Assembly (NCBI RefSeq): GCF_036365525.1 | Contig: NC_090402.1 | Location: 9,584,009 to 9,648,008 of the forward strand | DNA: 64,000 nucleotides | Direction of reading: 5' to 3' | From: Heterodontus francisci | Taxonomy: Eukaryota | In this document: positions 33,081 through 64,000 of the stretch, one piece after another | Layout of the letters: each line of letters begins with the position of its first letter | Numbering within the stretch: the stretch's first letter is position 1 | Notes under the pieces: generated by a model | Database searches by the model: none | Told to the model about the DNA's origin: nothing | What the model saw: only the letters and a program-made list of their open reading frames with translations | Translations under genes and position numbers: made by a program

Positions 33081-33140
33081 GGACGCCTTTCTCTTCCTCT
33101 CTCTCTGGTAGGTTTGTGACTGGGAGGAGGTGACAGCCCA

Positions 33141-33180
33141 GGAAGTGGACTTAACTTTCGTTTTCTCTTTCTCTTTCACT
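33141..33180. promoter_or_regulatory. ETS site plus tandem ISRE/IRF-E array (putative torsin A promoter)
   Basis: GGAAGT at 33141. The minus strand reads AGTGAAAGAGAAAGAGAAAACGAAAGTT, i.e. four GAAANN units. Local CpG enrichment, with a splice donor about 130 bp downstream. Confidence 0.65.
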
Positions 33181-33189
33181 TTTTTTTAA

Positions 33190-33307
33190 TACCAGTTTTA
33201 AATGCGGTTATCGCGCTCCAATAAGTTTGTATGTTAAAAAACAATTCGTTTTCATCTGCTGTTTGGGTGGTGGTCGCGGTGCCAGAAGTTTTGGGAGAGT
33301 TTCTTCA
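33190..33307 (+). other. Putative non-coding first exon of torsin A (5' end approximate)
   Basis: Consensus donor TCA|GTAAGT at 33307/33308 downstream of the promoter motifs. Coding exon 1 has a real acceptor at 36586, so an upstream exon is needed. Confidence 0.55.
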
Positions 33308-33567
33308 GTAAGTGTTAAACTTTCGCCCTCTTTCCCGGTGCGGAGCATCTCCGCTTCAAATCTTTTTACATGAAGCTTGGAGTAGTTGAAACTAGCAGTG
33401 TCTGGGTCAGACCCGGAGTGAAGAGAAACAGGGGAATTATTCGAGCTGCATCCTTAATTTAGGAGTAAATGTAACTTAGGTCCTTTTAAAAATGTATGTA
33501 TTTAATCTGTTAATTGGCTTACTCGAACGATCGTCACCTTTTGACATATGTATTTGCCCATTTTGAA

Positions 33568-33880
33568 GACTTGCATTTATATAGCGCCTTTCAGGAAGTT
33601 GCAAAGCTGCAGTCACTGTGTAGTCACTACTGTAATGCTGGAAACGCGGCAGGCAACCTGCGCACAGCAAGATCCCAAAATCAGCATTGCGGTTAATGAC
33701 CAGATAACTGTTTTAGTGATGTTGGTTGAGGGATAAATAGAAAGATTGCACCTCAGACTGTGCAGCACCCCCTCAGTACTGCACTGGAGAATCAGCCAAG
33801 GCTTTGTGCTCAAGTCTCTGGTGTGGATCTTGAACCCACTACATTCTGACTCAGGAGGTGAGAGTGTTATCACTGTGCCT
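33568..33880 (-). mobile_element. DeuSINE (duplicated at 51444-51788)
   Basis: Family motifs on the minus strand. Confidence 0.75.
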
Positions 33881-34236
33881 AGGCTGTCATGTTTTCCTTT
33901 ACTGTATTGCCACTAGAAAGCATGGATTTCAAAAGGGAAAGTCATGCACGATGAACCTTATTGAATTCTTTGAAGAAGTAACAGAAAGAGCAGGCAAGGC
34001 TAATGTAGCAGATGTATTATTTTTGGATTTTCAGAAAGTCTTCAATAAGGTACCGCACATAAGACTCAAGACTAAAATCAGAGAATGGAAATCAAAACAA
34101 AAAACAGAGCGTATGGGTTAAGGGCAGTTACGCACACCGGCAAAAGGTGGGAAGTGTTGTTCCACAGGGATTGGTGTTGAGATGTTTATCAGTCACAGTT
34201 TGTTTTGAGGATTTGGACTCGGGAATCAGAAGTATA

Positions 34237-34940
34237 GAGGGGAATTTTCCCAGGCGGGGGTTTGGAGACTGCGGGGTGCTGGGAAAATTAGAACAAATGA
34301 TGCCAGACAGGAATGCCAAAGTGTTCCTGCCTCCTGCTGCTTTTCCTGGAGTTGGCTTGTGTGTGCTACTCAACCCCAGAGGGGTGGAAGCCGATTGAGC
34401 TTGTTACTGAATCAATTAGCAGACATTTTGCCAGGAAGATGGTATTTCATCAGTGGCACTGTGCAGCCCCCACAGTGTTTGCACAGTGGGAGGTGGAAGC
34501 CCCATGAAAATAGCATGCAATCTGAACGTAAAGGTGCAAATGGGGAAGCCTGAGGTCATCCGCGGGTGGAGGGTTGCCACTGTAAGAGTAGCTCCTGGAG
34601 ACTGCTGTCACGGACAGTGCTCGGGGTGCAGACATGACTGCTGGTTTCTCAGCCTTCACTCACCTCCATCATCTTTTGATGCCATTCACCTCAGCAGCAC
34701 TCTCAGTACAGACACAGCGAAGGCTGCCGGCCACTCTCTTAACTCAGGCATGCTGATTCACCCTTCACCCTCCAGCCTCCTTACCCTGCCTGCCGTGCCA
34801 AATTAGATGGTGATCTCGCAGGCGGGTTTTTAATTGAGCACCTCCCGGAAGATTGGACCGGCAATCCCGCTCGGGCGGCAATCGGGTTTGCAATCCGAAA
34901 ATGGTCCCGACATCCAGAAAAATTGGGAAAATTCAGCCCA
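34237..34940. mobile_element. Non-autonomous DNA transposon nested in a CR1 relic (duplicated at ~52145-52848)
   Basis: Terminal inverted repeats ggggaattttccc / gggaaaattcagccc; CR1 RT motifs (QHGF...NLIEFFEEVT, LDFQKVF) upstream. Confidence 0.6.
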
Positions 34941-35139
34941 TGATTGGAGGGTGCAGTTAAGACTAAGGAAAACTGCAACAAAATACAACGAGATTAATAA
35001 ATTGCAGAATAGGCATTTAGTTGGCAAATGAATTTCAATATAGGTGATTATGGGATAGAAAGCCATAGATCCAAGTTTGGCAACGTCACAAAGATAGGCG
35101 ACATTATAACCAGTGTAGATGGAAGCGTAAAATTACAGA

Positions 35140-36392
35140 GACCGTGATAGATTCAGTGAATGGGCAAAACTGGCAAATATGAACATACAAACATATGAAT
35201 TAGAAGCAGGGGTAGGCCATTCGGGTCCTCAAGCCTGCCCTGCCATTTGATAAGATCATGGCTGATCCGAATGTGGCCTCAACTCTACTTTCCTGTCTGC
35301 CCCCTATACCCTTTGACTTACTTCTCATTCAAGAATCTATCTAACCAGCCGTAAAATTATTCAATGACCCTGCTTCCACTGCTTTCTGGGGAAGAGAATT
35401 TTGCAGCCTAACAACCCTCTGAGAGAAAGATTTCTCCTCATCTCCGTCTGAAGTGGGAGAGCCCTTATTTTCAAACTGGATTAAAATGGATTTGAATGTA
35501 GACAAATGTGACATCATCCACTTTGAACCTAAAAATAGAACAGGGTATTTGTAAATGGTGAAAAGCTGGAAGCAGTACAGGTCCAAAGCAACTTCGAGTT
35601 CCAGGTACACAGATCGTTTAAAATGTCAAGAACAGGTCCAGAAAATCATCACAAAGGCTATTGGAATGCTGGTCTTGATATCTTAAGAACTAGTGCAGCA
35701 CAGTGGCTAGCATCGCAGCTCCAGTGACCTGGGTTTAGTTCTGGGTACTGCCTGTGTGGAGTTTGCAAGTTTTCCCTGTGACTGTGTGGGTTTCCTCCGG
35801 GTGCTCTGGTTTCCTCCCATATGCTGAAGACTTGTGAGTTGATAGGTAAATTGGCCATTGTAAAAATTGCCCCTAGTGTAGGTAGGAGAAGTGAGGGAAG
35901 GTGGGGATGTGAGAGGGAAAATGGGATTAATGTAGGATTAGTATAAATGGGTGGTTGATGGTTGGCACAGACCAGGTGGTCTGAAGGACCTGTTTCAGTG
36001 CTGTATTTCTCTCTATGACTAGTATACAGGAGGGTAGAAGTTATGCTTCAGCTATACAAAGCCCTGGTTAGACCACACCCAGAGTTACTGTGTGCAGTTC
36101 TGGGTATCTTAGGAAGGATATATTGGCCTTGGAGGAGTGCAGTGTAGAATGATACCTGGACTCTAAGGGTTAAATTACAAGGAGAGATTACACAAACTAG
36201 GGTTGTATTCCCTGGAATGTAAAAGGTTAAGGGGTGATTTGATCAAAGTTTCCAAGATATTAAGGGGAACAGATAGGGTAGACAAGGAGAAACTATTTTC
36301 ACTGGTTAGAGGGTTCTAGGACTACGGTGCACAGTCTAAAAGTTAAGGCTAGACCTTTCAGGAATGAAGTTGGGAAACACTTCTACACACAA
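35140..36392. mobile_element. Nested CR1 fragments with HE1 SINE at ~35695-36020
   Basis: Plus-strand CR1 interrupted by a minus-strand CR1 tail and an HE1 copy flanked by actagt. Confidence 0.75.
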
Positions 36393-36631
36393 AGAGGCAC
36401 CAGTCTAGATTGTTGTACTCAAGTGTTAGGAGTGGGACTTAAACCCACATCTTTCTGACTCAAAAGACAGGAGCGCTACCCACTGAGCTACAGTTAACAC
36501 ACACAAATGTTGAAAGCTATCGTATGTTTAGCAAATTCATCAGAACAGCTACTTAATTTTTCAAAATGTCTCATTTGTTTTTTCAGCCATTCACATGATA
36601 ATAAAACTTACCAGAAGCAGACCTTCCAAAC

Positions 36632-36755
36632 ATGGCAAAGCTGCTTGTTTATGGAACAGGCTTAGCAGTGGTGATAGCATTAGTGGGAATTCTTGCCTAT
36701 ACCTTCATCTGCTGCGAGCGCTGTGACAATAACTGGATATCACTGGATGTAAAAG
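36632..36755 (+). CDS. Torsin A coding exon 1 ([41 protein letters not shown])
   Basis: Acceptor ttttttcag at 36586, in-frame TGA upstream, Kozak aacATGG, hydrophobic segment plus Cys motif and W-I-x-L as in torsin N-termini, phase-1 donor G|gtcaaa. Confidence 0.85.
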
Positions 36756-39700
36756 GTCAAACTTTGATATTTAAATACTGATAATTTAAACTGCTTTCTA
36801 ACTGTGTTTTATTGTAGGATTGTTGGGCTAGTGCTGCTAATATTATTGAAGTGACAATGACTGTGGAAAATGTAAAGCATGCCTTTACTACCTCCAGACT
36901 TGGCTATTGCAATGCTCTGCTGGCTGGCCTCACATCTTCCATACTCTGTAAAGCAGCTCACTCAAAACTTCGCTGCCCATATCCTAACTCGCACCAAGTC
37001 TCTTTCACCTATCACCTATTGTGCTCGCTGAACTACATTGGATCCCAGTCATTTCTCTGTAACCTAGTCCAGCTCTTCAACCCTCCCCGTGCTCCTCTAA
37101 TTCTGGCCTCTTGTGCATGTTCAATTTCAATTTCCCCGCGATTAATGGATGTGCCTTCAACTGCCCGGGCCAAAAGCTCTGGAATTCGCGCCCCCCCCAC
37201 CCCCCCCTCCCAAACTTCTCTGTCTCTCCACCTCTCTCTACATTAAGACACCCCACATAAGCCACCTTCTTTGACCAAGCTTTTGGTCACCTGGTCTAAT
37301 ATCTCCTTCTGTAGCTTGGTGTCAGATTTTGTTTGCTAACACTCCTGTGAAGCATCTTGGGATGTTGCACTATGATAAAGGCACTATATAAATGTAAGTT
37401 ATTGTGGTTATTGTTATGGACACAAGTATGTTCATTCTATCTTTGGACCGACATTCACCTTTCACAGTTGTTACTTAAGGCACGACTAACTAGAAGTCAA
37501 GCTTCAACAAAATACTTGAGAACCAAAGGGTGTCAGAAGTCTCATTGATTCGTGAGCTGACTGTATTTTGTGCAGTTTTAAATGGGAGAGCCCTTATTTT
37601 TAAACTGGATTAAAATGGATTGGAATGTAGACAAATGTGACATCATCCACTCTGAACCTAAAAATTATAGAACAGGGTATTTGTAAATGGTGAAAAGCTA
37701 GAAGCAGTACAGGTCCAAAGCAACTTCGAGTTCCAGGTACACAGATCATTAAAATGTCAAGAACAGGTCCAGAAAATTATCAAAAAGGCTATTGGAATGC
37801 TGGCCTTGATAGCTTAAGAACTAGTGTACAAGGGGCTAGAAGTCATGCTTCAGCTATACAAAGCCCTGGTTAAACTAGACCTGGAGTTATTGTGAGCAGT
37901 TCTGGGTACCACACTTTAAGAAGGATATATTGGCCTCGGAGGGAGTGCAGTGCAGATTTACCAGAATGATACCTGGACTCCACGGGTTAAATTACGAGGA
38001 GAGATTACACAAACTAGGGTTGTGTTCCTTGGAATTTAGAGGGTTAAGGGGTGTACAAGTGCATTCTTGCAGTAGCTCCAGTGATAATATCAAGAAGCTG
38101 CCACTATAAGAACAAGTGATGACATTTCAATATTTATTATTAAATCTTGTTTCTCAATTCTTGTTAGTTGCTAGGGTACAGAGTTTGTGGTATGGAGAAA
38201 AGACAATGGCTTTGATTTTCCCAATATTTAACCAGAGGAAGTTACAGCTCATTCATGACCTGGATGTCAGACAAGCACAGGGTCAGTGGAGACAAGTAGT
38301 GACGAGAATTGTTTTTCAGCAGCATAAACCCCATTGGAATGTAATTGGCAGCAGTGTTAGTTGTGGCTCAGTTGGTAGCATTCTCACTTCTGAATCAGAC
38401 AGTTGCAGGTTAAAACCTAACTCCATAAACTTGGACACAGGTATCTAGGCTGACATCCCAATTCGGTGCTGAGGGAGTGCTGCACTGTCAAGGGTGCCGT
38501 TTTCGATTGTGACGTTAAATCACGGCCCCGTCTGCTCTCTCAGGCGGATGTGTGGGATGCCATGGCACTATTTTGAAGAAGAGCAGGGGAGTTCTCCCTG
38601 ATATCCCGGCCAATATTTATCGCTCAATCAACATCACTAAAAATAATTTATCTGAGTATTATCACATTGCTGTTTGTGGGAGCTTGCTGTGCACAAATTG
38701 GCAGCCGCATTTCCTGCATTATAAGAGTGACTATACTTCAAAAGTGCTTCATTGGCTGTAAAACACTTTGAGATAGCCTGAAGACATGAAAGGCGCTATA
38801 TAAATGCAAGTTTTCCTTTTTAACATGACTTTTCTTTGCTGATTATTAATACAGGATTAGAGAGGGATTTCACGCACAAACTATTTGGACAGCACATTGC
38901 ACGTAAAGTGATCGTCAAAGCGATTAAAGGTTCTTTAAGTACTCCTGATCCCAAGAAACCCCTCACCATGTCTCTACACGGTGACAGTGGCACCGGCAAG
39001 AACTTTGTCAGTCAACTGATAGCACAGAACCTTTACAAAAATGGAATGAACAGCCAGTACATACATGTATTTGTGTCCACCCACCATTTCCCTCATCTGC
39101 AACTCATTAACCAGTATCAGGTAATTATTATGCTTAGTAAGACCTTCATTGTAATGATAGATTCATAGCATCATCAATGCATGGATATAACACAATGCAA
39201 AACCTATAAAAATCTTGATTTATGTTTTATTTTAATGCTGGGTGATTCTTAAACTGAAGTTTGTGGTCATTTTTCTTCTCCCTCATTTATCATGGATTTT
39301 CCAGAACATATACTAATAAGTGTTGGTTATCATCTTTCCTTCACTGGTGCTGGGTCAAAACCATGGAATTCCATACCCAAGAACACTGTGGATGCACCTT
39401 CCCCACATGGACTGCAGCGGTTCAAAAAGGCGGCTCACCACCACTTTCTCGAGAAATTTGGGATAGACAATAGCAAAAGGATATTAATGACATCAAATAA
39501 GTGTTGTAAAATAAAAAAAAAATGTTGAGGTGAAGCAAGTCCACTATTGTGAGACAGTTTTCTTTTAATTCTGCAGAATCAGTTGCGGGCTTGGATTCGT
39601 GGAAATGTTACGGTATGTCCCAGATCAATGTTTATCTTTGATGAAATGGACAAGATGCATCCAGGCCTCATCAATGCTATCAAACCTTTCCTGGACTACA

Positions 39701-41933
39701 CCAGTGATGTTGACAAAGTGGATTATCGAAAAGCAATATTCATCTTCTTGAGGTAAGTAGGCACCAAGTAACAACCTGCTTCGGGACAGTAGAAATTGGC
39801 AGGATTCCCACTCGTGATCATCAACCAATAAGCCTGGTGAAGAATCATGATATTTCTAAGTATTGGACACAATGGGGCAATTTTAATCTAACCCTCCCAT
39901 CAGGAAACCCATGGGAGTGGGTTTTACACCCTGCCTGCTTCTACTGTCCATCAAAGTCACTTGTGTGCAATTTTGGGCAGGATGTAAAATCACCATTCTA
40001 CCTGATCTTGTGGGATTTCGCCCAGTGAGTTAGGTTAAAATTGTCCCATTGTGGCAGGTTCCAGGAGGAGATTCAATGTAAAAGTTCCATTGTGAAGTAG
40101 AAGAAATGTCTCCTGACTTTAAAAGCCCCTCTTCCTGCCACAGTGTCACAGTGAATTACAGCGAGTCTACAGCACAGATGCAGGCCGTTCAGCCCATCTG
40201 GTCCATGCTGGCATTTGTGCTCCACATGCTTCCTCCCACCCCTCTACATCTCTATCTCTTTCAGAATATCCTACTATTCCTTTCTCCCTCACGTGTTTAT
40301 CCAGCTTCCCATTAAATGCATCTATGCTATTTGCCTCAACTACTCCATGTGGTAGCAAGTTCCAAATTTTGAACACACTTTGGGACTCTTGAATTCCCGG
40401 TTGGAGTGATCTCTCACTTGCTCTTGTTGACCTTGCTGAGGATGACTAATAACACCCGATTCTGTTTTCCCCTGAATAGCAATACTGGTGGCGACAAGAT
40501 AAATGAAATCACCTTGAGCACCTTGATGAGAGGAAAGAAAAGGGAGAGCATTAAACTGAGTCAGCTAGAGGAAGAGCTCTCCCGGATGGTCTTCAACAAG
40601 AACAATAGTAAGTGTGCGTCACTGACAAATGGAGAATAAAATGATGCACAAAAAACCTCAATTGGCAAAACGCATTCTCTCTTTTGTTTCACTTTCACTG
40701 GGGAGATGGTAGCATAGTGGTAATGTGACTGGACTAGTAATCCAGAGGCTCAGGCTAATACCTTGGGGACACAGGTGCAAATCCCACCATGGTAGATGGT
40801 GGAATTTAATTTCAATTAATTAATAAAAATCTAGAATTAAAAGCTAGTAAGGGTGCCCTGGAACTATTGTCGATTGCCATTAAAAGCCATCTGGTTCACA
40901 ATGCCATTTAGGGAAGGAAATCTTCTGGCCTACATGTGACTCCAGCCCCACAGCAATGTGTTTGACTCTGAACTACCCTCTGAAATGGTCTAGCAAGTCA
41001 TTCGGGTCAAGGCCAATGAGGGCTGAGCAACAAATGCTTGCCTTGGGAGTGATGCCCACATCTCATGAAAGAATAGAAAAAGGTTCCCTCACAACTACAG
41101 CCCTGTTCCTGAGTGAACAAATGCCAGCCATTGGATGGACATTTATTTTTGCTTGTAAAACTTATAAAAGATGCCTTTTTTTGATCCAGTACTCAAGAAT
41201 GTATTATAACGTGAAACATAAATTGCCTGGTGAGCCGTGAATGTACTGATTGGGTCCATGGTGACGCAGCAAATTAACCCATGACTAACTGAACTGTATA
41301 GATCAGAGCGAACCTTGGCTTCAGTCTCCAAGGTTTCATTGGTGTGGGTTGGGGGTGGTCTAGGCCTAGCCTCAGCACCAGGGAAAGGGAAAAATCTGTT
41401 GAGCTTCTTGTTTCTGGTCACTAACCAGTGACTCCTGCTGAATCTGCTTGTGTGTAGGGATGGGGTGAGGCTAGGAGCAGGCTGCTAACACTCACTGCCA
41501 AGTCTCACGTAGTCAATGGCCACTTGGGTAATGAGCTGGAGCACAATGAGTATCAGAGTCAATGCCTACAGGAGAGGAGAAAGCTGGCACCGAAGGGAGG
41601 GTACAAAAAATGTACTCACTCTGAAAACGATGAGCAGAATTATCTGTTTTGTTGGTTAGATTAATGTTTTGCAACATTTCTCTTACAGGTGGCTTCTGGC
41701 AGACTCACCTCATCCAAACCAATTTGATTGATCATTTCATTCCCTTCCTACCCCTGGAGTTTAAACATGTTGTGTCATGCGTGAGAGCAGAACTTGTATC
41801 TAGAGGGGTGAACAACAATGAGGACATTGTCACTAAAGTAGCAAGCAGTTTGATCTACTACCCGAAAGAGGAGAAGATGTTGTCAGTGAAAGGCTGTAAG
41901 ACTGTGACCTCCAAAGTGAACCTGTATGTCTAA
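36632..41933 (+). CDS. Torsin gene A: complete divergent torsin-1 family AAA+ ATPase, join(36632..36755,38855..39120,39577..39752,40480..40607,41689..41933), 312 aa
   Basis: Five GT-AG exons total 939 nt in one open frame. Motifs: FGQH, Walker A GDSGTGKN, Walker B FIFDEMDK, sensor-1 [14 protein letters not shown], sensor-2 GCK. Internal exon sizes 266/176/128 and their phases match the TOR1A/TOR1B gene structure. Exact orthology unresolved. Confidence 0.93.
36878..37400 (+). mobile_element. L2 LINE 3' fragment
   Basis: [18 protein letters not shown] motif and L2 tail. Confidence 0.85.
38355..38812 (+). mobile_element. DeuSINE, near full length (duplicated at ~56288-56745)
   Basis: tggctcagttggtagca head through aaggcgctatataaatgcaag tail. 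Confidence 0.85.
38855..39120 (+). CDS. Torsin A exon 2 (Walker A)
   Basis: acag|GATTAGAG to CAG|gtaatt, 266 nt; encodes LFGQHIA...[20 protein letters not shown]. Confidence 0.96.
39577..39752 (+). CDS. Torsin A exon 3 (Walker B)
   Basis: ctgcag|AATCAG to AG|gtaagt, 176 nt; encodes [27 protein letters not shown]. Confidence 0.96.
39874..40048. mobile_element. Short MITE; contains the duplication breakpoint
   Basis: Inverted termini ggggcaattttaatctaac / gttaggttaaaattgtccc. Confidence 0.65.
40480..40607 (+). CDS. Torsin A exon 4
   Basis: aatag|CAATACT to A|gtaagt, 128 nt; encodes [12 protein letters not shown]...GKKRESIKL...VFNKNN. Confidence 0.93.
40700..41080 (+). mobile_element. tRNA-headed SINE-like element
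   Basis: Same family as 25550-25930. Confidence 0.75.
41689..41933 (+). CDS. Torsin A exon 5 (C-terminal, sensor-2 GCK)
   Basis: ttacag|GTGGC; encodes [27 protein letters not shown]...[14 protein letters not shown]. Confidence 0.96.
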
Positions 41934-47095: not shown

Positions 47096-47235
47096 TTATT
47101 TATTTATTGAGAGATACAGCACTGAAACAAGCTCTTCGGCCCACCAAGTCTATGCCAACCAACAACCACCCATTTATCCTAACCCTACAGTAATCCCATA
47201 CTGCCTACCACCTACTTACACTAGGGGCAATTTAC

Positions 47236-50030: not shown

Positions 50031-50208
50031 ATGGAGGTTGTCGGCAGCTGCCTGCTGTTCTTGCTCCTCTCTCCGATATTGACGACGGCGCTGGAGCCAT
50101 TAACTACCTTCACCTTACTGGCCGGAGCGGCCTCTGTTGCCTATTATTATTTAAACTGTAATTTCCAGGAATGCTGTACCAAGAAGTGGATACCGCTGAA
50201 TGTGGAAG
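50031..50208 (+). CDS. TOR1A: Torsin B (TOR1A/1B-like) exon 1: signal peptide, hydrophobic domain, CxxxECC
   Basis: MEVVGSCLLFLLLSPILTTA-LEPLTTFTLLAGAASVAYYYLNCNFQECCTKKWIPLNVE resembles the TOR1A N-terminus (VEPIS...CLFAECC). 178 nt, phase-1 donor G|gtacag. TOR1A versus TOR1B orthology is not resolved. Confidence 0.9.
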
Positions 50209-50265
50209 GTACAGGGTCAGGGGTCAGAGCCAGGTACAGGGTCAGGGGTTACAGGCTGACCACGC

Positions 50266-50810
50266 CCCCGACCACACCACGGTCCCCCCCCCCCCCCCCT
50301 CCCGACCTCCCCACGGTCTCTCTCCCCCCCCCCCCCCCGACCTCACCACGGTCTCCCCCCCCCCCTCTCCCGACCTCCCCACGTCCCCCCCCTCCCGACC
50401 TCCCCACGTCCCCCCCCCCCTCCCGACCTCACCACGGTCTCCCCCCCCCCCCCTCTCCCGACCTCCCCACGTCCCCCCCCTCTCCCGACCTCCCCACGTC
50501 CCCCCCCCTCCCGACCTCCCCACGTCCCCCCCCCCTCCCGACCTCACCACGGTCTCCCCCCCCCTCTCCCGACCTCCCCACGTCCCCCCCCCCCTCCCGA
50601 CCTCCCCACGTCCCCCCCCCTCCCGACCTCCCCACGTCCCCCCCCCTCCCGACCTCCCCACGTCCCCCCCCCCTCCCGACCTCCCCACGTCCCCCCCCCC
50701 CTCCCGACCTCCCCACGTCCCCCCCCCCTCCCGACCTCCCCACCTCCCCCCCCCCTCCCGACCTCCCCACGTCCCCGTCCCCCCCCCGACCTCACCACGG
50801 TCCCCCCCCA
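50266..50810 (+). repeat. C-rich minisatellite, ~25-30 bp unit (Cn-tcccgacctccccacgt), ~20 copies
   Basis: Visible tandem units in torsin B intron 1. A short version recurs at 57970-58022. Confidence 0.95.
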
Positions 50811-51016
50811 TGAATGGGGTGAGGGAGTTGGGGAATGGGTGAGTTGGAGAGGGTGTGAGAGAGATGGGAAAGGGGGTGAGGTGGGCTGGGTTGGATGGAG
50901 AGGGGGAATGAGGGAGTTAAGGAGTGGAGGAGGGAGTGGGGTATGATGGAGGTGTGGGACGCCTTTCTCTTCCTCTCTCTCTGGTAGGTTTGTGACTGGG
51001 AGGAGGTGACAGCCCA

Positions 51017-51056
51017 GGAAGTGGACTTAACTTTCGTTTTCTCTTTCTCTTTCACT
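51017..51056. promoter_or_regulatory. Duplicated ETS + ISRE array inside torsin B intron 1
   Basis: Identical to 33141-33180; duplicated donor at 51183/51184. Confidence 0.6.
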
Positions 51057-54000
51057 TTTTTTTAATACCAGTTTTAAATGCGGTTATCGCGCTCCAATAA
51101 GTTTGTATGTTAAAAAACAATTCGTTTTCATCTGCTGTTTGGGTGGTGGTCGCGGTGCCAGAAGTTTTGGGAAAGTTTCTTCAGTAAGTGTTAAACTTTC
51201 GCCCTCTTTCCCGGTGCGGAGCATCTCCGCTTCAAATCTTTTTACATGAAGCTTGGAGTAGTTGAAACTAGCAATGTCTGGGTCAGACCCGGAGTGAAGA
51301 GAAACAGGGGAATTATTCGAGCTGCATCCTTAATTTAGGAGTAAATGTAACTTAGGTCCTTTTAAAAATGTATGTATTTAATCTGTTAATTGGCTTACTC
51401 GAACGATCGTCACCTTTTGACATATGTATTTGCCCATTTTGAAGACTTGCATTTATATAGCGCCTTTCAGGAAGTTGCAAAGCTGCAGTCACTGTGTAGT
51501 CACTACTGTAATGCTGGAAACGCGGCAGGCAACCTGCGCACAGCAAGATCCCAAAATCAGCATTGCGGTTAATGACCAGATAACTGTTTTAGTGATGTTG
51601 GTTGAGGGATAAATATAGGCCAGGGCACTGGGGAGAATTGCTCTTTGGAAAGATTGCACCTCAGACTGTGCAGCACCCCCTCAGTACTGCACTGGAGAAT
51701 CAGCCAAGGCTTTGTGCTCAAGTCTCTGGTGTGGACCTTGAACCCACTACATTCTGACTCAGGAGGTGAGAGTGTTATCACTGTGCCTAGGCTGTCATGT
51801 TTTCCTTTACTGTATTGCCACTAGAAAGCATGGATTTCAAAAGGGAAAGTCATGCACGATGAACCTTATTGAATTCTTTGAAGAAGTAACAGAAAGAGCA
51901 GGCAAGGCTAATGTAGCAGATGTATTATTTTTGGATTTTCAGAAAGTCTTCAATAAGGTACCGCACATAAGACTCAAGACTAAAATCAGAGAATGGAAAT
52001 CAAAACAAAAAACAGAGCGTATGTGTTAAGGGCAGTTACGCACACCGGCAAAAGGTGGGAAGTGTTGTTCCACAGGGATTGGTGTTGAGATGTTTATCAG
52101 TCACAGTTTGTTTTGAGGATTTGGACTCGGGAATCAGAAGTATAGAGGGGAATTTTCCCAGGCGGGGGTTTGGAGACTGCGGGGTGCTGGGAAAATTAGA
52201 ACAAATGATGCCAGACAGGAATGCCAAAGTGTTCCTGCCTCCTGCTGCTTTTCCTGGAGTTGGCTTGTGTGTGCTACTCAACCCCAGAGGGGTGGAAGCC
52301 GATTGAGCTTGTTACTGAATCAATTAGCAGACATTTTGCCAGGAAGATGGTATTTCATCAGTGGCACTGTGCAGCCCCCACAGTGTTTGCACAGTGGGAG
52401 GTGGAAGCCCCATGAAAATAGCATGCAATCTGAACGTAAAGGTGCAAATGGGGAAGCCTGAGGTCATCCGCGGGTGGAGGGTTGCCACTGTAAGAGTAGC
52501 TCCTGGAGACTGCTGTCACGGACAGTGCTCGGGGTGCAGACATGACTGCTGGTTTCTCAGCCTTCACTCACCTCCATCATCTTTTGATGCCATTCACCTC
52601 AGCAGCACTCTCAGTACAGACACAGCGAAGGCTGCCGGCCACTCTCTTAACTCAGGCATGCTGATTCACCCTTCACCCTCCAGCCTCCTTACCCTGCCTG
52701 CCGTGCCAAATTAGATGGTGATCTCGCAGGCGGGTTTTTAATTGAGCACCTCCCGGAAGATTGGACCGGCAATCCCGCTCGGGCGGCAATCGGGTTTGCA
52801 ATCCGAAAATGGTCCCGACATCCAGAAAAATTGGGAAAATTCAGCCCATGATTGGAGGGTGCAGTTAAGACTAAGGAAAACTGCAACAAAATACAACGAG
52901 ATTAATAAATTGCAGAATAGGCATTTAGTTGGCAAATGAATTTCAATATAGGTGATTATGGGATAGAAAGCCATAGATCCAAGTTTGGCAACGTCACAAA
53001 GATAGGCGACATTATAACCAGTGTAGATGGAAGCGTAAAATTACAGAGACCGTGATAGATTCAGTGAATGGGCAAAACTGTGGCAAATATGAACATACAA
53101 ACATATGAATTAGAAGCAGGGGTAGGCCATTCGGGTCCTCAAGCCTGCCCTGCCATTTGATAAGATCATGGCTGATCCGATTGTGGCCTCAACTCTACTT
53201 TCCTGTCTGCCCCCTATACCCTTTGACTTACTTCTCATTCAAGAATCTATCTAACCAGCCGTAAAATTATTCAATGACCCTGCTTCCACTGCTTTCTGGG
53301 GAAGAGAATTTTGCAGCCTAACAACCCTCTGAGAGAAAGATTTCTCCTCATCTCCGTCTGAAGTGGGAGAGCCCTTATTTTCAAACTGGATTAAAATGGA
53401 TTTGAATGTAGACAAATGTGACATCATCCACTTTGAACCTAAAAATAGAACAGGGTATTTGTAAATGGTGAAAAGCTGGAAGCAGTACAGGTCCAAAGCA
53501 ACTTCGAGTTCCAGGTACACAGATCGTTTAAAATGTCAAGAACAGGTCCAGAAAATCATCACAAAGGCTATTGGAATGCTGGTCTTGATATCTTAAGAAC
53601 TAGTGCAGCACAGTGGCTAGCATCGCAGCTCCAGTGACCTGGGTTTAGTTCTGGGTACTGCCTGTGTGGAGTTTGCAAGTTTTCCCTGTGACTGTGTGGG
53701 TTTCCTCCGGGTGCTCTGGTTTCCTCCCATATGCTGAAGACTTGTGAGTTGATAGGTAAATTGGCCATTGTAAAAATTGCCCCTAGTGTAGGTAGGAGAA
53801 TTGAGGGAAGGTGGGGATGTGAGAGGGAAAATGGGATTAATGTAGGATTAGTATAAATGGGTGGTTGATGGTTGGCACAGACCAGGTGGTCTGAAGGACC
53901 TGTTTCAGTGCTGTATTTCTCTCTATGACTAGTATACAGGAGGGTAGAAGTTATGCTTCAGCTATACAAAGCCCTGGTTAGACCACACCCAGAGTTACTG

Positions 54001-54541
54001 TGTACAGTTCTGGGTATCTTAGGAAGGATATATTGGCCTTGGAGGAGTGCAGTGTAGAATGATACCTGGACTCTAAGGGTTAAATTACAAGGAGAGATTA
54101 CACAAACTAGGGTTGTATTCCCTGGAATGTAAAAGGTTAAGGGGTGATTTGATCAAAGTTTCCAAGATATTAAGGGGAACAGATAGGGTAGACAAGGAGA
54201 AACTATTTTCACTGGTTAGAGGGTTCTAGGACTACGGTGCACAGTCTAAAAGTTAAGGCTAGACCTTTCAGGAATGAAGTTGGGAAACACTTCTACACAC
54301 AAAGAGGCACCAGTCTAGATTGTTGTACTCAAGTGTTAGGAGTGGGACTTAAACCCACATCTTTCTGACTCAAAAGACAGGAGCGCTACCCACTGAGCTA
54401 CAGTTAACACACACAAATGTTGAAAGCTATCGTATGTTTAGCAAATTCATCAGAACAGCTACTTAATTTTTCAAAATGTCTCATTTGTTTTTTCAGCCAT
54501 TCACATGATAATAAAACTTACCAGAAGCAGACCTTCCAAAC

Positions 54542-54665
54542 ATGGCAAAGCTGCTTGTTTATGGAACAGGCTTAGCAGTGGTGATAGCATTAGTGGGAAT
54601 TCTTGCCTATACCTTCATCTGCTACGAGCGCTGTGACAATAACTGGATATCACTGGATGTAAAAG
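54542..54665 (+). CDS. Duplicated torsin A exon 1 (A'1), Cys to Tyr at 54624
   Basis: Acceptor at 54496, ATG and donor intact; FICYERC versus FICCERC. Confidence 0.7.
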
Positions 54666-56787
54666 GTCAAACTTTGATATTTAAATACTGATAATTTAAA
54701 CTGCTTTCTAACTGTGTTTTATTGTAGGATTGTTGGGCTAGTGCTGCTAATATTATTGAAGTGACAATGACTGTGGAAAATGTAAAGCATGCCTTTACTA
54801 CCTCCAGACTTGGCTATTGCAATGCTCTGCTGGCTGGCCTCACATCTTCCATACTCTGTAAAGCAGCTCACTCAAAACTTCGCTGCCCATATCCTAACTC
54901 GCACCAAGTCTCTTTCACCTATCACCTATTGTGCTCGCTGAACTACATTGGATCCCAGTCATTTCTCTGTGGCCTCACTCATCCCTATCTCTGTAACCTA
55001 GTCCAGCTCTTCAACCCTCCCCGTGCTCCTCTAATTCTGGCCTCTTGTGCATGTTCAATTTCAATTTCCCCGCGATTAATGGATGTGCCTTCAACTGCCC
55101 GGGCCAAAAGCTCTGGAATTCGCGCCCCCCCCACCCCCCCCTCCCAAACTTCTCTGTCTCTCCACCTCTCTCTACATTAAGACACCCCACATAAGCCACC
55201 TTCTTTGACCAAGCTTTTGGTCACCTGGTCTAATATCTCCTTCTGGAGCTTGGTGTCAGATTTTGTTTGCTAACACTCCTGTGAAGCATCTTGGGATGTT
55301 GCACTATGATAAAGGCACTATATAAATGTAAGTTATTGTGGTTATTGTTATGGACACAAGTATGTTCATTCTATCTTTGGACCGACATTCACCTTTCACA
55401 GTTGTTACTTAAGGCACGACTAACTAGAAGTCAAGCTTCAACAAAATACTTGAGAACCAAAGGGTGTCAGAAGTCTCATTGATTCGTGAGCTGACTGTAT
55501 TTTGTGCAGTTTTAAATGGGAGAGCCCTTATTTTTAAACTGGATTAAAATGGATTGGAATGTAGACAAATGTGACATCATCCACTCTGAACCTAAAAATT
55601 ATAGAACAGGGTATTTGTAAATGGTGAAAAGCTAGAAGCAGTACAGGTCCAAAGCAACTTCGAGTTCCAGGTACACAGATCATTAAAATGTCAAGAACAG
55701 GTCCAGAAAATTATCAAAAAGGCTATTGGAATGCTGGCCTTGATAGCTTAAGAACTAGTGTACAAGGGGCTAGAAGTCATGCTTCAGCTATACAAAGCCC
55801 TGGTTAAACTAGACCTGGAGTTATTGTGAGCAGTTCTGGGCACCACACTTTAAGAAGGATATATTGGCCTCGGAGGGAGTGCAGTGCAGATTTACCAGAA
55901 TGATACCTGGACTCCACGGGTTAAATTACGAGGAGAGATTACACAAACTAGGGTTGTGTTCCTTGGAATTTAGAGGGTTAAGGGGTGTACAAGTGCATTC
56001 TTGCAGTAGCTCCAGTGATAATATCAAGAAGCTGCCACTATAAGAACAAGTGATGACATTTCAATATTTATTATTAAATCTTGTTTCTCAATTCTTGTTA
56101 GTTGCTAGGGTACAGAGTTTGTGGTATGGAGAAAAGACAATGGCTTTGATTTTCCCAATATTTAACCAGAGGAAGTTACAGCTCATTCATGACCTGGATG
56201 TCAGACAAGCACAGGGTCAGTGGAGACAAGTAGTGACGAGAATTGTTTTTCAGCAGCATAAACCCATTGGAATGTAATTGGCAGCAGTGTTAGTTGTGGC
56301 TCAGTTGGTAGCATTCTCACTTTTGAATCAGACAGTTGCAGGTTAAAACCTAACTCCATAAACTTGGACACAGGTATCTAGGCTGACATCCCAATTCGGT
56401 GCTGAGGGAGTGCTGCACTGTCAAGGGTGCCGTTTTCGATTGTGACGTTAAATCACGGCCCCGTCTGCTCTCTCAGGCGGATGTGTGGGATGCCATGGCA
56501 CTATTTTGAAGAAGAGCAGGGGAGTTCTCCCTGATATCCCGGCCAATATTTATCGCTCAATCAACATCACTAAAAATAATTTATCTGAGTATTATCACAT
56601 TGCTGTTTGTGGGAGCTTGCTGTGCACAAATTGGCAGCCGCATTTCCTGCATTATAAGAGTGACTATACTTCAAAAGTGCTTCATTGGCTGTAAAACACT
56701 TTGAGATAGCCTGCAGACATGAAAGGCGCTATATAAATGCAAGTTTTCCTTTTTAACATGACTTTTCTTTGCTGATTATTAATACAG

Positions 56788-57053
56788 GATTAGAGAGGGA
56801 TTTCACGCACAAACTATTTGGACAGCACATTGCACGTAAAGTGATCGTCAAAGCGATTAAAGGTTCTTTAAGTACTCCTGATCCCAAGAAACCCCTCACC
56901 ATGTCTCTACACGGTGACAGTGGCACCGGCAAGAACTTTGTCAGTCAACTGATAGCACAGAACCTTTACAAAAATGGAATGAACAGCCAGTACATACATG
57001 TATTTGTGTCCACCCACCATTTCCCTCATCTGCAACTCATTAACCAGTATCAG
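56788..57053 (+). CDS. Duplicated torsin A exon 2 (A'2)
   Basis: Same protein as 38855-39120, splice sites intact. Confidence 0.8.
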
Positions 57054-57511
57054 GTAATTATTATGCTTAGTAAGACCTTCATTGTAATGATAGATTCATA
57101 GCATCATCAATGCATGGATATAACACAATGCAAAACCTATAAAAATCTTGATTTATGTTTTATTTTAATGCTGGGTGATTCTTAAACTGAAGTTTGTGGT
57201 CATTTTTCTTCTCCCTCATTTATCATGGATTTTCCAGAACATATACTAATAAGTGTTGGTTATCATCTTTCCTTCACTGGTGCTGGGTCAAAACCATGGA
57301 ATTCCATATCCAAGAACACTGTGGATGCACCTTCCCCACATGGACTGCAGCGGTTCAAAAAGGCGGCTCACCGCCACTTTCTCAAGAGAAATTTGGGATA
57401 GACAATAGCAAAAGGATATTAATGACATCAAATAAGTGTTGTAAAATAAAAAAAAAATGTTGAGGTGAAGCAAGTCCACTATTGTGAGACAGTTTTCTTT
57501 TAATTCTGCAG

Positions 57512-57687
57512 AATCAGTTGCGGGCTTGGATTCGTGGAAATGTTACGATATGTCCCAGATCAATGTTTATCTTTGATGAAATGGACAAGATGCATCCAGG
57601 CCTCATCAATGCTATCAAACCTTTCCTGGACTACACCAGTGATGTTGACAAAGTGGATTATCGAAAAGCAATATTCATCTTCTTGAG
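57512..57687 (+). CDS. Duplicated torsin A exon 3 (A'3), Val to Ile; no A' exons 4-5 follow
   Basis: Splice sites intact, GNVTIC versus GNVTVC. The duplication ends 250 bp later. Confidence 0.8.
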
Positions 57688-58102
57688 GTAAGTAGGCACC
57701 AAGTAACAACCTGCTTCGGGACAGTAGAAATTGGCAGGATTCCCACTCGTGATCATCAACCAATAAGCCTGGTGAAGAATCATGATATTTCTAAGTATTG
57801 GACACAATGGGGCAATTTTAATCTAACCCTCCCATCAGGAAACCCATGGGAGTGGGTTTTACACCCCGCCTGCTTCTACTGTCCATCAAAGTCACTTGTG
57901 TGCAATTTTGGGCAGGATGTAAAATCACCATTCTACCAGGTACAGGGTCAGGGGTTACAGGCTGGCCACCCCCCGACCTCCCCACGGTCCCCCCCGCCCC
58001 CCGACTTCCCCACGCGTCCCCCATATATCATAAATCCAGATACATCTATCAATGGAGTCCTGCTCGCAGAATTACCAGTCTTTCTGTTTGATTTTAAACT
58101 AG

Positions 58103-58368
58103 GATTAAAAGCTGACTTGAAGCGGCAGGTGTTTGGACAGCACATTGCAATTGATGTGATTCCAACGGCGATTAAAGGTTTCTTGAGTAACCGTGATGCG
58201 AAGAAACCTCTCACCCTATCTCTCCATGGCTGGACCGGTACTGGCAAAAACTTTGCCAGTAAAATAATAGCTGAAAGCCTTTATAAAAAGGGAATGGACA
58301 GTAAATTTGTTCATCACTTTATCGCTGATCTTCATTTTCCCATTGCTGCACATACCGACGAGTACAAG
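58103..58368 (+). CDS. TOR1A: Torsin B exon 2 (canonical Walker A GWTGTGKN)
   Basis: aactag|GATTAAAA to AAG|gtaatt, 266 nt; encodes VFGQHIA...KKPLTLSLHGWTGTGKNFASKIIAE. Confidence 0.95.
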
Positions 58369-58739
58369 GTAATTACCAGCCTCTTATTTTTCTGTGGTCG
58401 TAGTGTGACCCTTGTACAATATTCAAGATTAGAACAAACTCTCCCAGGGCAGGTACAGCACGGGTTAGTTCCAGAATAAGACTCCTATAATAAAAGCAAA
58501 ATACTGCGGGTGCTGGAAATCTGAAATTTTTATTTTATTTTTTTATTTATTTAGAGATACAGCACTGAAACAGACCCTTCGGCCCACCGAGTCTGTGCCG
58601 ACCATCAACCACCCATTTATACTAAACCTCCACTAATCCCATATTCTTACCACATCCCCACCTGTCCCTCTATTCCCCTACCACCTACCTATACTAGGTT
58701 TTTCCTTCGAAGGTTCCCTCACCACCTGCTGCAGACCTA

Positions 58740-59080
58740 AGGCTGACTTGGGTCTGCAAATGAAACCTGACCCGAGCCTGACAGAACTACATTCGACCCA
58801 GCCCGGGTCTTTTCATTTTTTTCCTGTGCCCGACCCGTCCCGACCACTGGAATGTACAGTTAACCTAGCTTCCGTTTTTCACTTTTTAAGCTTGTGCAAA
58901 TAAGCAACAAAAACTGTAACTGGACTTGAAAGGTTGTTTAAAATCTCCATTTGAAAGTGGAGCAACGTACCAGGGATGGTGATAGTGTGTCCCACCCGAG
59001 CCCAAATGCCGGACCTGGAAGAGCGACCCGACCCGAACCCAACAGATGTCGTCTGGTTCAGGTCGGGTAGCCATGCTGTA
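58740..59080. mobile_element. Non-autonomous DNA transposon, hAT-like
   Basis: Subterminal cccgacccg/acccgagccc repeats in both orientations. Confidence 0.5.
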
Positions 59081-59134
59081 GCGCACACCCAGTCTCACAG
59101 CTATATCCTTTCAGACTCGGCCAGCTCGGTCAGT

Positions 59135-60005
59135 AGTGGTGCTACGGAACCACTCGGTGGTGGACATTTAAGTCCCCCACCCAGAGTACATTCTGTGCCC
59201 TTGCCACCCTTAGTACTACTTCCAGTTTGTTGTTCAACGTGGAGAAGCACTGATTCATCAGCCGAGGTGGGTGCAGTAGGTGGTAATCAGTAGGAGGTTT
59301 CCTTGCCCATGTTTGACCTGATACCATGAGACTTCATGGGGTCCGGAGTCAATGTTGAGAGCTCCTAGGGCAACTCCCTCCCAACTGTATACCACTGTGC
59401 CACCACCTCTGGTGGGTCTGTCATGCTGGTGGGACAGGACATAGCCAAGGATGGTGATGGTTGTGTCTGGGACATTGTCCGTAAGATATGATTCCGTGAG
59501 TATGATTATGTCAGGCTGTGGCTTGACTAGTCTGTAGGCTAGTTCTCCCAACTTTGGCACAAGCCTCCACATGTTAGTAAGGAGGACTTTGCAGGGTCAA
59601 CAGGACTGGGTTTGCCATTGTTACTAGTGCCTAGGTCGATGCTGGGTAGACCGTCCGGTTTCATTACTTTTCTTACACTGTGTAGTAATTTGATACAACT
59701 GAGTGGCTTGCTAGGCCATTTCAGAGGGCAGTTAAGAGTCAACCACATTGCTGTGGGTCTGGAATCACATGTAGGCCAGACCAGGTAAGGACGACAGATT
59801 TCCTTCCCTGAAGGACATTAGTGAGCCAGGTGGGATTTTATGACAATCGACAGTGGTTTCATGATCACCACTAGATTAGCTTTTAGTTCCAGATTTATTA
59901 ATTAAATTCAAATTCCACCATCTGCCGTGGTGGGATTTGAACCCACTGTCCAGAGCATTAGCCTGGGGCTCTGGGTTACTAGTCTATAACATTACCACTA
60001 TGCCG
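59135..60005 (-). mobile_element. LINE 5' end: tRNA-like head continuous with AP-endonuclease coding sequence
   Basis: QPDIIILTESYL...GY...DRPTRGGGTVVY and VGDLNVHH motifs, downstream of a SINE-like head. Confidence 0.85.
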
Positions 60006-61416
60006 TCGACTCCCCACTTGTCCCATTACTATCCCCCCCACCCTTTGCCCTGTCCCATCGTCCTTTTAGTCATTTTATCCTACCTTTCATCCTATCTCAG
60101 CCCTTCCTCTTTGATCTCGCTCTCCCCTGCCTCTGTACTTAAAAGCTGTTAAACCTCAACACTTTCTAGTTCTGACGGAAGGCCATCAACCTGAAAGGTT
60201 AGCTTTGTGTCTCCACAGATGCTGCTTGACCTGAGTATTTGCAACATTTTCAGTTTTATTTTATACTACTCTGTGTCTTGGTTCCAGGACAAAAACATTG
60301 AACATTGCCAAAACTCCTCTTTCTTTGGAGGATTCAAGGAACTTCATTCCCATTTTATGAAACTATTGTACTATCTGTCTATGTATAAGTGTACATTTGG
60401 AAGTGCACATTATGTAAGTGTTCATTGCCATGCGTGTTTTCTGATGTTGCTGCTCCGTGACTGATGCATGTGGGAGAAATGCATTGACAAATTGAGACTT
60501 CTGGGCATAAATGTGCTTATAATGTGAGACTAAAGCGATTATTTGGTCTTGGGTTCAGGGAAGGTGGATGTAGGTTTGGTATTTATTTAGGAGAAGGGCT
60601 TCATACTGGCAGGGTGCAAATTGACACCAATGTTTCAGTCTGTGAGTTGGAGGTAGGGGCAGGCGATACGGTAGGTCTCAGCAAGCAGTCTATCTTGCAG
60701 TAGACAAAGTCTATTTACTCAGCCAGCAGTCTATTTAAACAGCGCACAACAGCAAAGAGACTCTATGAGCTACAGCAAACAGAGCTCATGACTGCAACTG
60801 CAGACCGCCATAAGCAGGGTGCTTTCTCGAGTGAAGGATAGTTGTATATAAAACTCTGTGCATAAAATCAATCCCAGTCACTTAACAGCAGAGTGTATTG
60901 ACAAGATAATTACCTAATGATCTCCGTTCTGGCTGGGAACAGTGGTGCCACTACAGGCAGCCACATATGGGTGGCAGTATTGTTTGGGGATGGTGCCCAT
61001 TCTGGGCAGTGGTTTTATTTATCTCTCCATAAATATTAAGCTAAACTATCCATGATATTAAAAGTGCATTCCCATGAATAAATTTTACCAGCTCAAACTG
61101 TTAGATTTTTTCTGTTTTTTTTAATGTTTTAAAAACTTTTGGTTGAATTGTGAACATTGATGCATCTGGAGATTGCTGAACTTTGTGCACTCCTTCCGCC
61201 TCGGTCGTTAAACAAATATTTACACCTGAAAATGTGGATAGTTTTGTCTCTGTGAATAATAGGGAAGTCTGCAAGAACCTTAAAGGAAATAGTCCCAGAG
61301 TTAGAACCACCAAGAACAGTGCCGTCAATAGAATTGATATTAAAAAAAAAAGTAAGGTCCTTGTTTTATTTTTAGTGTATTCTATCATTTTTTTTTCCCT
61401 CAATGAATTAATTCAG

Positions 61417-61592
61417 CAACAGTTGCAGGAGTGGATTCGTGGGAATGTTAGCAAGTGTAAGCGGTCCCTGTTTATTTTTGATGAAATGGACAAAATGCAC
61501 CCCAAACTCATTGATTCCATTAAAGCATTACTGGAATACGACAGCCTCATTGATGGAGTGAATTATCGAAAGGCCATGTTCATCTTCCTGAG
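61417..61592 (+). CDS. TOR1A: Torsin B exon 3 (Walker B); exons 4-5 expected beyond the window
   Basis: ttcag|CAACAG to AG|gtaagt, 176 nt; encodes [28 protein letters not shown]...YRKAMFIFL. Confidence 0.95.
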
Positions 61593-63823: not shown

Positions 63824-64000
63824 GTCATTATCACATTGCTGTTTTTGGGAGCTTGCTGTGCAAAATTTGGCTGCTGTCTTTCCTGCATCACAACAGTGAC
63901 TACATTTCAAAAGTACTTCATTCGCTGCAAAGCACTTTGAGACATTCGATAATCATGAAAGGTGCTATAGAAATGCAAATCTTTCTTTGTAAAATGTCCC

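What the first reader, a model, noticed from the sequence alone, without database searches (positions are those of the whole stretch)
50031..61592. Gene-inside-gene torsin locus: paralog A promoter and exons 1-3 inserted in intron 1 of torsin B, allowing combinatorial chimeric torsins
Seen: 50812-57937 copies 32936-40002 in the same orientation and sits between B exon 1 (ends 50208) and B exon 2 (starts 58103). All A' splice sites and reading frames are intact. Phases match: B1 and A'1 donors are phase 1; A'2 and B2 are 1-0; A'3 and B3 are 0-2. Inference: with B exons 4-5 (outside the window), six in-frame paths exist: {B1 or A'1} x {A'2-A'3, A'2-B3, B2-B3}. These would swap the N-terminus (signal peptide versus single anchor), the Walker A loop (GWTGTGKN versus GDSGTGKN) and the promoter (housekeeping versus ISRE). 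Two paths are unproductive: B1->A'1 enters a frame that stops at TGA 54636, and A'3->B2 is frameshifted. The insert could therefore also act as an attenuating or NMD switch on torsin B.
Basis: partly seen in the sequence, partly recalled or inferred. Interest (0 to 1): 0.85.

Follow-up and report, generated by a model that had tools for sequence, protein, structure and literature searches.

The report
Partial torsin copy inside neighbouring gene
In this shark assembly the front half of one torsin gene is copied into the first intron of the torsin gene next door; the copy is likely real and young, and likely gives mostly broken messages rather than a set of mix-and-match proteins.

Summary

It is probably real (about 0.85). 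The right junction is in DNA contigs of the same sample label, the window has no gap, and a third A sequence version exists. The left junction is unconfirmed and zygosity is unknown.

The six in-frame chimeric paths exist on paper, but each needs a skip of at least two exons. All 13 paths with 0-1 skipped exons stop early. Two RNA runs and the public annotation show ordinary A and ordinary B and none of the five chimeras; minor forms could be missed. Contig ends in one run fit best a frameshifted A'3-B2 junction (inferred).

Best reading: a young 3'-truncated partial duplicate, neutral or damaging to B in cis, of a known class. A combinatorial torsin system is unlikely (about 0.07).

The parts
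32936..40002 (+). Source segment: torsin A core promoter, non-coding exon, coding exons 1-3 and first 250 nt of intron 3
36632..41933 (+). Torsin A, complete, 5 coding exons (36632-36755, 38855-39120, 39577-39752, 40480-40607, 41689-41933), 312 aa
49860..50030 (+). Torsin B promoter region with CCAAT, GC-box and CGGAAG motifs (motif names recalled, read by eye)
   Evidence: CpG o/e 0.75, but the A promoter has the same value
50031..50208 (+). Torsin B coding exon 1 (likely signal peptide plus hydrophobic segment; no predictor run)
50230..50811 (+). X: left copy of the start of B intron 1, with a ~540-nt C-rich 27-mer minisatellite (G-quadruplex motifs on the minus strand) and the 2 nt that normally follow it
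50811..50812 (.). Left junction, blunt or 1-nt overlap; not confirmed in read contigs
50812..57937 (+). A': inserted 7126-nt copy of torsin A promoter to intron 3
51030..51047 (+). Two overlapping ISRE-like motifs at the transcription start of A' (33154-33171 in A)
   Evidence: 7 matches in window, 2 of them repeated by the copy; 2.45 expected; RNA contigs begin at 51026 and about 51043
51026..51183 (+). Non-coding first exon of A/A'
   Evidence: (X6 contig 22)
54497..54665 (+). A' coding exon 1 (ATG 54542); frameshifting if spliced to B exon 1, stop 54634-54636
56788..57053 (+). A' exon 2 (Walker A region GDSGTGKN)
57512..57687 (+). A' exon 3 (Walker B region); last exon of the copy
57936..57938 (.). 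Right junction, 2-nt CC overlap; present in DNA contigs
57936..58024 (+). X': right copy of the start of B intron 1 with a short (~60 nt) form of the minisatellite; includes a copy of the B donor motif
58103..58368 (+). Torsin B exon 2 (GWTGTGKN); stop at 58113 if entered from A' exon 3
61417..61592 (+). Torsin B exon 3 (exons 4-5 lie beyond the window in L001)

Best explanation
A 7.1-kb copy of the torsin A promoter and exons 1-3 lies in intron 1 of torsin B; it is likely a real, young rearrangement still varying within the species, and its default spliced messages would be frameshifted and likely destroyed, so it is likely neutral or mildly damaging to B rather than a chimera-making system. 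Origin (inferred): either a template switch from just behind the G-quadruplex-rich minisatellite of B intron 1 back to the G-rich flank of A, 7 kb of copying and a return to the start of B intron 1; or a non-homologous 17.9-kb tandem duplication followed by loss of 10.2 kb from the second copy. Both give the duplicated intron start that flanks the insert. Output (computed): from the B promoter, inclusion of A' exon 1 stops at 54634 (105 aa). From the A' promoter, exons 1-3 run into B exon 2 and stop at 58113 (192 aa), lacking the C-terminal small domain. Both stops lie several junctions before the last exon, the usual NMD trigger (recalled rule). Working B message comes from skipping the whole insert or from an insert-free allele; which of the two is not resolved.
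For: Right junction: DNA contig 57360-57937 ends exactly at the breakpoint and contig 57908-58464 (0 differences) begins with the 30-nt k-mer overlap (one short of the tool's 31-letter bridging rule; X2 and X3 look like one data set). No N in the window. Third version: RNA contigs of both runs carry T54609 with G54624, found in neither assembled copy, and the assembly holds only two copies of this exon. DNA contig 57360-57937 has 2 differences and no gap where A differs from A' by 3 substitutions and a gap. Youth: 0.23% substitutions (95% CI 0.13-0.37%); the RNA version differs from A' at 2 and from A at 3 of 769 exon positions, A from A' at 3. Splicing: 13 of 13 paths with 0-1 skipped exons stop early; 6 of 96 are full length, all needing a 2-3 exon skip. 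RNA contigs are ordinary A (1461 nt, 769 nt) and B exons 2-3 plus 128 nt (771 nt, 600 nt). Of 20 scenarios, each run with B exon 1 kept or clipped, only A3>B2 with B exon 1 clipped reproduces both X6 contig lengths. Three of four breakpoints lie within 60 nt of G4 motifs, a zone that covers 3.7% of the region (post hoc, two share one repeat). The class is described in PMC6169893.
Against: The left junction is not seen: a 2130-nt DNA contig runs through 50812 and on for 1472 nt unlike the stretch, without a fork. All read evidence is from one sample label and contigs only; the joint and loose-end tables were flooded by repeats (2670 joints not shown), so no junction letters were read. DNA depth over B (2.8-3.8) is a third to a quarter of that over A (11-17), lower than either zygosity predicts. 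No insert-free allele is visible in DNA contigs either. The A'3>B2 junction is inferred from lengths and needs B exon 1 to have been clipped; a variant at 50178 plus intron retention in A would give the same lengths. NMD was not tested. If the RNA came from another animal, the RNA part of the third-version argument falls.
Confidence: 0.68

Rival explanations
1. Assembly misjoin. The animal carries a normal allele and a 10.2-kb deletion allele (A intron 3 joined to B intron 1), and the assembler placed the deletion allele behind the normal one at the minisatellite. Only the right junction would be real.
For: Left junction not seen in DNA contigs. It lies 2 nt behind a G-rich minisatellite, a kind of sequence where HiFi coverage drops (10.1101/2025.10.14.682431; the platform of X2/X3 is not on record). 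A/A' divergence is allele-like, and X and X' differ like two alleles of a repeat. False insertion of three exons of one gene into another is documented (PMC9516828).
Against: No gap at either junction, whereas the documented cases had gaps. Two haplotypes give two A versions, but DNA and RNA contigs need a third. Depth does not rise again after 58024, where the normal allele should rejoin. A short low-depth branch into a repeat is what contig cleaning tends to remove (recalled; one search confirms SPAdes-like simplification only).
Confidence: 0.13
2. Functional regulatory insert. The interferon-type promoter inside B intron 1 fires on induction and lowers B in cis (interference or poison exons), or yields a stable 189-192 aa membrane-anchored torsin fragment that acts as a decoy.
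For: ISRE-like motifs and the start site are inside the copy. The inferred A'3>B2 junction suggests A' is transcribed. Both RNA runs show the non-assembly letter at B 58206, as expected if the insert-bearing B is under-expressed (1 in 4 by chance). Truncated duplicates such as SRGAP2C do have functions. Human TOR1B is induced by interferon (PMC3368901).
Against: Only about 215 nt of real A upstream sequence is included. RNA majority letters at 54609 and 54624 are not those of A'. There is no sign of fixation or selection. The fragment lacks the small domain needed for LAP1/LULL1 binding.
Confidence: 0.12
3. Combinatorial chimera locus. Alternative promoters and paired paralogous exons give up to five hybrid torsins that swap N-terminus, Walker A loop and regulation.
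For: Phases match exon for exon and six full-length in-frame paths exist. A and B share 160 identical residues (312 and 338 aa) with colinear exons, so hybrids might fold. Contigs drop minor isoforms.
Against: Each path needs a 2-3 exon skip and no exclusion device is evident; A'3-B2 is an ordinary 415-nt intron. No hybrid in two RNA runs; bin depths over A exon 1 (X6) and B exon 3 (both runs) are accounted for by the ordinary contigs. No hybrid among the public proteins of this locus. No clear A/B mosaic among 36 cartilaginous-fish proteins (two B orthologues are near-ties in exon 3). The copy is too young to be a tuned system.
Confidence: 0.07

Closest known systems
3'-truncated partial duplicates with retained promoter (SRGAP2B/C, ARHGAP11B, NOTCH2NL-NBPF; PMC6169893, passages read)
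   Same: Promoter and first exons copied, 3' exons missing, read-through splicing into downstream exons likely, frame mostly lost.
   Different: Here the landing site is intron 1 of an intact paralogue with matching exon phases, so in-frame hybrids are possible on paper; no function or fixation is shown.
Unequal-crossover hybrid genes (haemoglobin Lepore, CYP11B1/B2; recalled)
   Same: The promoter and N-terminus of one tandem paralogue are placed before the exons of the next.
   Different: Those cross over at homologous positions and give one clean hybrid. Here the junctions share 0-2 nt, both exon sets stay in one unit and the default splice is out of frame.
Mutually exclusive or variable-first-exon systems (Dscam, UGT1A, clustered protocadherins; recalled)
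   Same: Tandem homologous exons of equal phase, and two promoters before shared 3' exons.
   Different: No exclusion mechanism, no isoform diversity in RNA, no conservation shown.
False chimeric gain by false duplication (three ALDH2 exons in ACAD10; PMC9516828, passages read)
   Same: Three exons of one gene appear inside a neighbour at allele-like divergence.
   Different: No assembly gap, the right junction is in read contigs, and a third sequence version exists.
Torsin-1 family (TOR1A/TOR1B; Pfam PF06309, PF21376)
   Same: A and B carry both domains; five-exon layout.
   Different: A and B form shark clades separate from the TOR1A-like clade in the tree (no TOR1B, TOR2A or TOR3A rows); A' alone lacks PF21376.

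Membership tests
Torsin-1 family | Torsin AAA+ domain PF06309 and C-terminal domain PF21376 | tested here: met
   A (P0093) and B (P0178) pass both cut-offs
Torsin-1 family (A' product) | C-terminal small domain PF21376 | tested here: not met
   189-aa P0004 has PF06309 only
3'-truncated partial duplicate | Ancestral start site and promoter retained | tested here: met
   RNA contig starts 51026 and about 51043 fall inside the copied segment
3'-truncated partial duplicate | Downstream exons missing | tested here: met
   Copy ends 250 nt into intron 3
3'-truncated partial duplicate | Copy is transcribed and spliced to downstream exons | tested here: inconclusive
Combinatorial or mutually exclusive exon system | Homologous exons of equal phase in tandem | tested here: met
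Combinatorial or mutually exclusive exon system | Several in-frame isoforms actually produced | tested here: not met
   None in two RNA contig sets or the public annotation; minor forms could be missed
Combinatorial or mutually exclusive exon system | Mechanism that enforces one exon of each pair | not tested
   Only intron lengths seen (A'3-B2 415 nt, no steric block); RNA pairing not examined
Combinatorial or mutually exclusive exon system | Arrangement conserved in relatives | not testable with these tools
False haplotype duplication | Assembly gap between or beside the copies | tested here: not met
   0 N in window
False haplotype duplication | Junctions unsupported by reads | tested here: inconclusive
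   Right junction present, left junction not seen
False haplotype duplication | Only two sequence versions in the animal | tested here: not met
   Third version in RNA contigs and a mosaic DNA contig
False haplotype duplication | Half depth over both copies | not testable with these tools
   Contigs collapse the two copies; depth is no copy number
Unequal-crossover hybrid gene | Crossover inside homologous sequence at the homologous position | tested here: not met
   0-2 nt overlap; best local match across the right breakpoints 8 nt
Interferon-stimulated gene (torsin A) | ISRE at the promoter | tested here: met
   Two overlapping matches at the start site
Interferon-stimulated gene (torsin A) | Induction by interferon | not testable with these tools
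   No induced samples

The most novel reading that the evidence does not exclude
A hybrid gene caught at birth: an interferon-type promoter and the first three exons of a fast-evolving shark torsin have landed inside its housekeeping paralogue with every exon phase matched, so infection would switch the locus from torsin B to hybrid A'/B torsins (or shut B down in cis), and both alleles still segregate for study.
Probability: 0.1. Interest if true: 0.7.

Novelty: new member of a known kind. Interest (0 to 1): 0.3.

Why it matters
As it most likely stands, this is one more young partial duplication and matters little beyond this locus, except as a caution: the reference carries a rearranged torsin allele and a 189-aa annotated 'gene' that is probably a stub. 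If hybrids or an inducible shut-off of B were shown, it would be a rare natural case of phase-matched paralogous cassettes before any exclusion mechanism has evolved, and a natural domain swap in a family whose molecular function is still open. The more durable lead is torsin A itself: a shark-wide, long-branch paralogue with one N-terminal hydrophobic segment, a variable Walker A loop and an ISRE-like start site. Two literature searches listed no paper on shark torsins.

Tried and rejected
Run search: no holder was on record as RNA; X5-X8 are RNA by guess. Reads were laid once, on 50750-61700, which leaves out B exon 1 and most of the minisatellite; 4 of 24 listed runs were laid, and X2/X3 proved near-identical. 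Joint and loose-end tables showed only repeats. Contig depths were not used to rank genes or count copies. Upstream depth estimated from the mixed contig (9-11) cannot separate three from four copies. The 57548 change was rejected as a marker for A'. No second copy of B exon 2, of the right junction, of B exon 1 or a third A exon 1 was found in the assembly. A synteny test with a fused torsin-PTGES protein found no PTGES exons in 144 kb. CpG content does not separate the two promoters (0.75 vs 0.73-0.75). Dating was dropped: no usable rate was retrieved. No poly(A) hexamer lies between A' exon 3 and B exon 2. Earlier scan findings: none. One preprint searched for torsin as an ISG had no occurrence. 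No fold or complex job was run. Supplements were not read.
Full report
Setting. The window is G000:C32:9584009-9648008 of a 6.0-Gb assembly. Public proteins identical to the window's exons are named torsin-1A-like of Heterodontus francisci on a contig of the same length. Three torsins lie in tandem on the + strand: A (36632-41933, 312 aa), B (50031 to window-relative 70737, 338 aa, equal to P0178) and C (76451-88618), the last two completed from fetched neighbours. In a tree of 34 proteins, A groups with nine shark orthologues on a long branch (100/100), B with six (100/99), and the C-type proteins with tetrapod TOR1A (TOR1B, TOR2A and TOR3A were not included, and this genome's own C was not a row). 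A and B are therefore old paralogues.

The observation. 50812-57937 copies 32936-40002 on the same strand with 16 substitutions and 5 indels. It holds about 215 nt of upstream sequence, a non-coding exon (to 51183), coding exons 1-3 and 250 nt of intron 3. All splice sites are intact. X (50230-50811) carries a ~540-nt C-rich 27-mer minisatellite plus the 2 nt that normally follow it; X' (57936-58024) carries a ~60-nt form. The left join is blunt or shares 1 nt, the right shares CC, and no longer homology exists. This fits template switching or a tandem duplication followed by deletion (mechanisms recalled), not homologous unequal crossover. Three of four breakpoints are within 60 nt of G-quadruplex motifs, a zone covering 3.7% of the region; this is post hoc and two of them border the same repeat.

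Is it real? Contigs of 4 of 24 listed runs were laid on 50750-61700; all four carry one sample label, and the two DNA runs give near-identical values. Logan contigs are built from 31-mers seen at least twice, with SPAdes-like cleaning (PMC12424806, passages). The left junction is not seen: a 2130-nt contig passes 50812 and runs on 1472 nt unlike the stretch, presumably into A's flank. A short low-depth branch into a repeat could have been cleaned away (recalled behaviour), so this is inconclusive. Against a two-haplotype false duplication, the window has no gap, unlike the cases in PMC9516828 (passages). A third version of A also exists: both RNA runs read T at 54609 with G at 54624, a pair in neither copy, and the assembly has only two copies of this exon. 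The DNA contig 57360-57937 matches neither copy in its count of differences. Unexplained: DNA depth is 11-17 over the copied segment but 2.8-3.8 over B. Read loss near the minisatellite is one reason (reported for HiFi in 10.1101/2025.10.14.682431, passages); more A copies than assembled is another. Zygosity is open. I put reality of the whole insert at about 0.85.

Age. A and A' differ by 0.23% (CI 0.13-0.37%). Over 769 exon positions the RNA version differs from A' at 2, from A at 3, and A from A' at 3 (states at 51173 and 57548 are read from pieces with 0 differences). The copy thus lies within allele-level variation. No calendar date is given.

What it does. Of 96 splice paths, 6 give a full-length protein (ordinary B and five hybrids) and 2 give shorter in-frame products; each of the six needs a skip of 2-3 consecutive exons. 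All 13 paths with 0-1 skipped exons stop early: at 54634 from the B promoter and at 58113 from the A' promoter when nothing is skipped. Such products lack the C-terminal small domain, which TorsinA needs for LAP1/LULL1 binding (PMC4999309, passages). In RNA, X5 gives one 1461-nt A contig unbroken through and past exon 3, and a 771-nt contig whose length equals 201 nt + B2 + B3 + B4. The 201 nt cannot be A sequence and fit B exon 1. X6 gives a 769-nt A contig ending on the last base of exon 3 and a 600-nt contig of 30 nt + B2 + B3 + B4. The shared end at B exon 4 matches the annotated alternative exon-5 acceptor, which checks the logic. Any common hybrid junction would have broken these contigs elsewhere. 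A simulation of 20 scenarios, each with B exon 1 kept or clipped, found only A3>B2 with B exon 1 clipped to give both X6 lengths; a variant at 50178 together with intron retention would also do so. I take the frameshifted A'3-B2 junction as likely (about 0.6), not shown. RNA majority letters are not those of A' at 54609 and 54624, nor of the assembled B at 58206, which fits low output from the insert haplotype but is weak. The public annotation has no hybrid, and none is clear among 36 cartilaginous-fish proteins scored exon by exon.

Promoters. Two overlapping ISRE-like motifs sit at A's start site, and human TOR1B is induced by interferon (PMC3368901, passages); induction of A is untested. 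B's promoter motifs were read by eye.

Comparison and verdict. The closest class is the 3'-truncated duplicate with retained promoter, for which fusion transcripts are common but rarely keep a frame (PMC6169893, passages). The twist here is that the landing site is a phase-matched paralogue. It works like a poison cassette more than like a Dscam- or UGT1A-type system (recalled), of which it meets only the phase criterion. Searches for torsin with shark (13 papers listed) and torsin with gene duplication, cartilaginous, paralog (12 of 653 listed, none with torsin) showed nothing on this locus; listings only were seen, as for apart from the papers named above. Interest 0.3; new member of a known kind.

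Noticed in passing
window 32936-41933 and orthologues P0005-P0017, P0186: Torsin A is a shark-wide long-branch clade (10 rows, 100/100) with one N-terminal hydrophobic segment instead of signal peptide plus hydrophobic region, Walker A W replaced by D, Y, H or N, and ISRE-like motifs at the start site here: a candidate interferon-type torsin.
   Followed up: partly
P0097, P0098, P0179-P0184 (Leucoraja, Amblyraja): Skate annotation models of 436-516 aa; the two read (P0097, P0098) repeat the torsin block matching exons 2-4 in frame (570 nt in the shark exons, phase-symmetric), and P0098 has two Torsin domains. Either a second partial duplication in this family or merged gene models.
   Followed up: partly
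L009 973-1134 (G000:C2:196616472-196616633): Processed fragment of torsin B with exon 1 joined directly to exon 2, 83-86% identical, frameshifted: an old retrocopy showing that B1-B2 is the ancestral splice.
   Followed up: yes
L010 1142-1521, minus strand (G000:C4): 380-nt copy of torsin A exon 2 and the start of intron 2 (38895-39272), 95.5% identical, frameshifted: an earlier dispersed partial copy of A.
   Followed up: yes
L002-L003, window-relative 76451-88618: Third tandem torsin (C), TOR1A-like; its intron 1 also begins with a tandem repeat (76713-77308) of a different unit.
   Followed up: partly
L001, window-relative 70469 and 70545: B exon 5 has a second acceptor 76 nt downstream that gives the annotated 311-aa isoform with a frameshifted C-terminus; RNA contigs of both runs end at exon 4 as this fork predicts.
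   Followed up: partly
window 57908-61700: DNA contig depth over torsin B (2.8-3.8) is a third to a quarter of that over A (11-17); unexplained.
   Followed up: partly
window 50207-50249: An 18-nt direct repeat doubles the B exon 1 donor motif 25 nt downstream; X' supplies a third copy at 57938.
   Followed up: no
window 45472-45545 and 44575-44663: tRNA-Ile(AAT) call, and a tRNA-Thr call that overlaps a dispersed repeat.
   Followed up: no
window 47235-48800 and 62550-63824: LINE-like fragments on the minus strand, about 89% alike, with more copies in the neighbouring stretches (class recalled).
   Followed up: no
G000:C32:17048139-17048276, minus strand: A further torsin exon 3-like match 7.4 Mb away on the same chromosome.
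   Followed up: no
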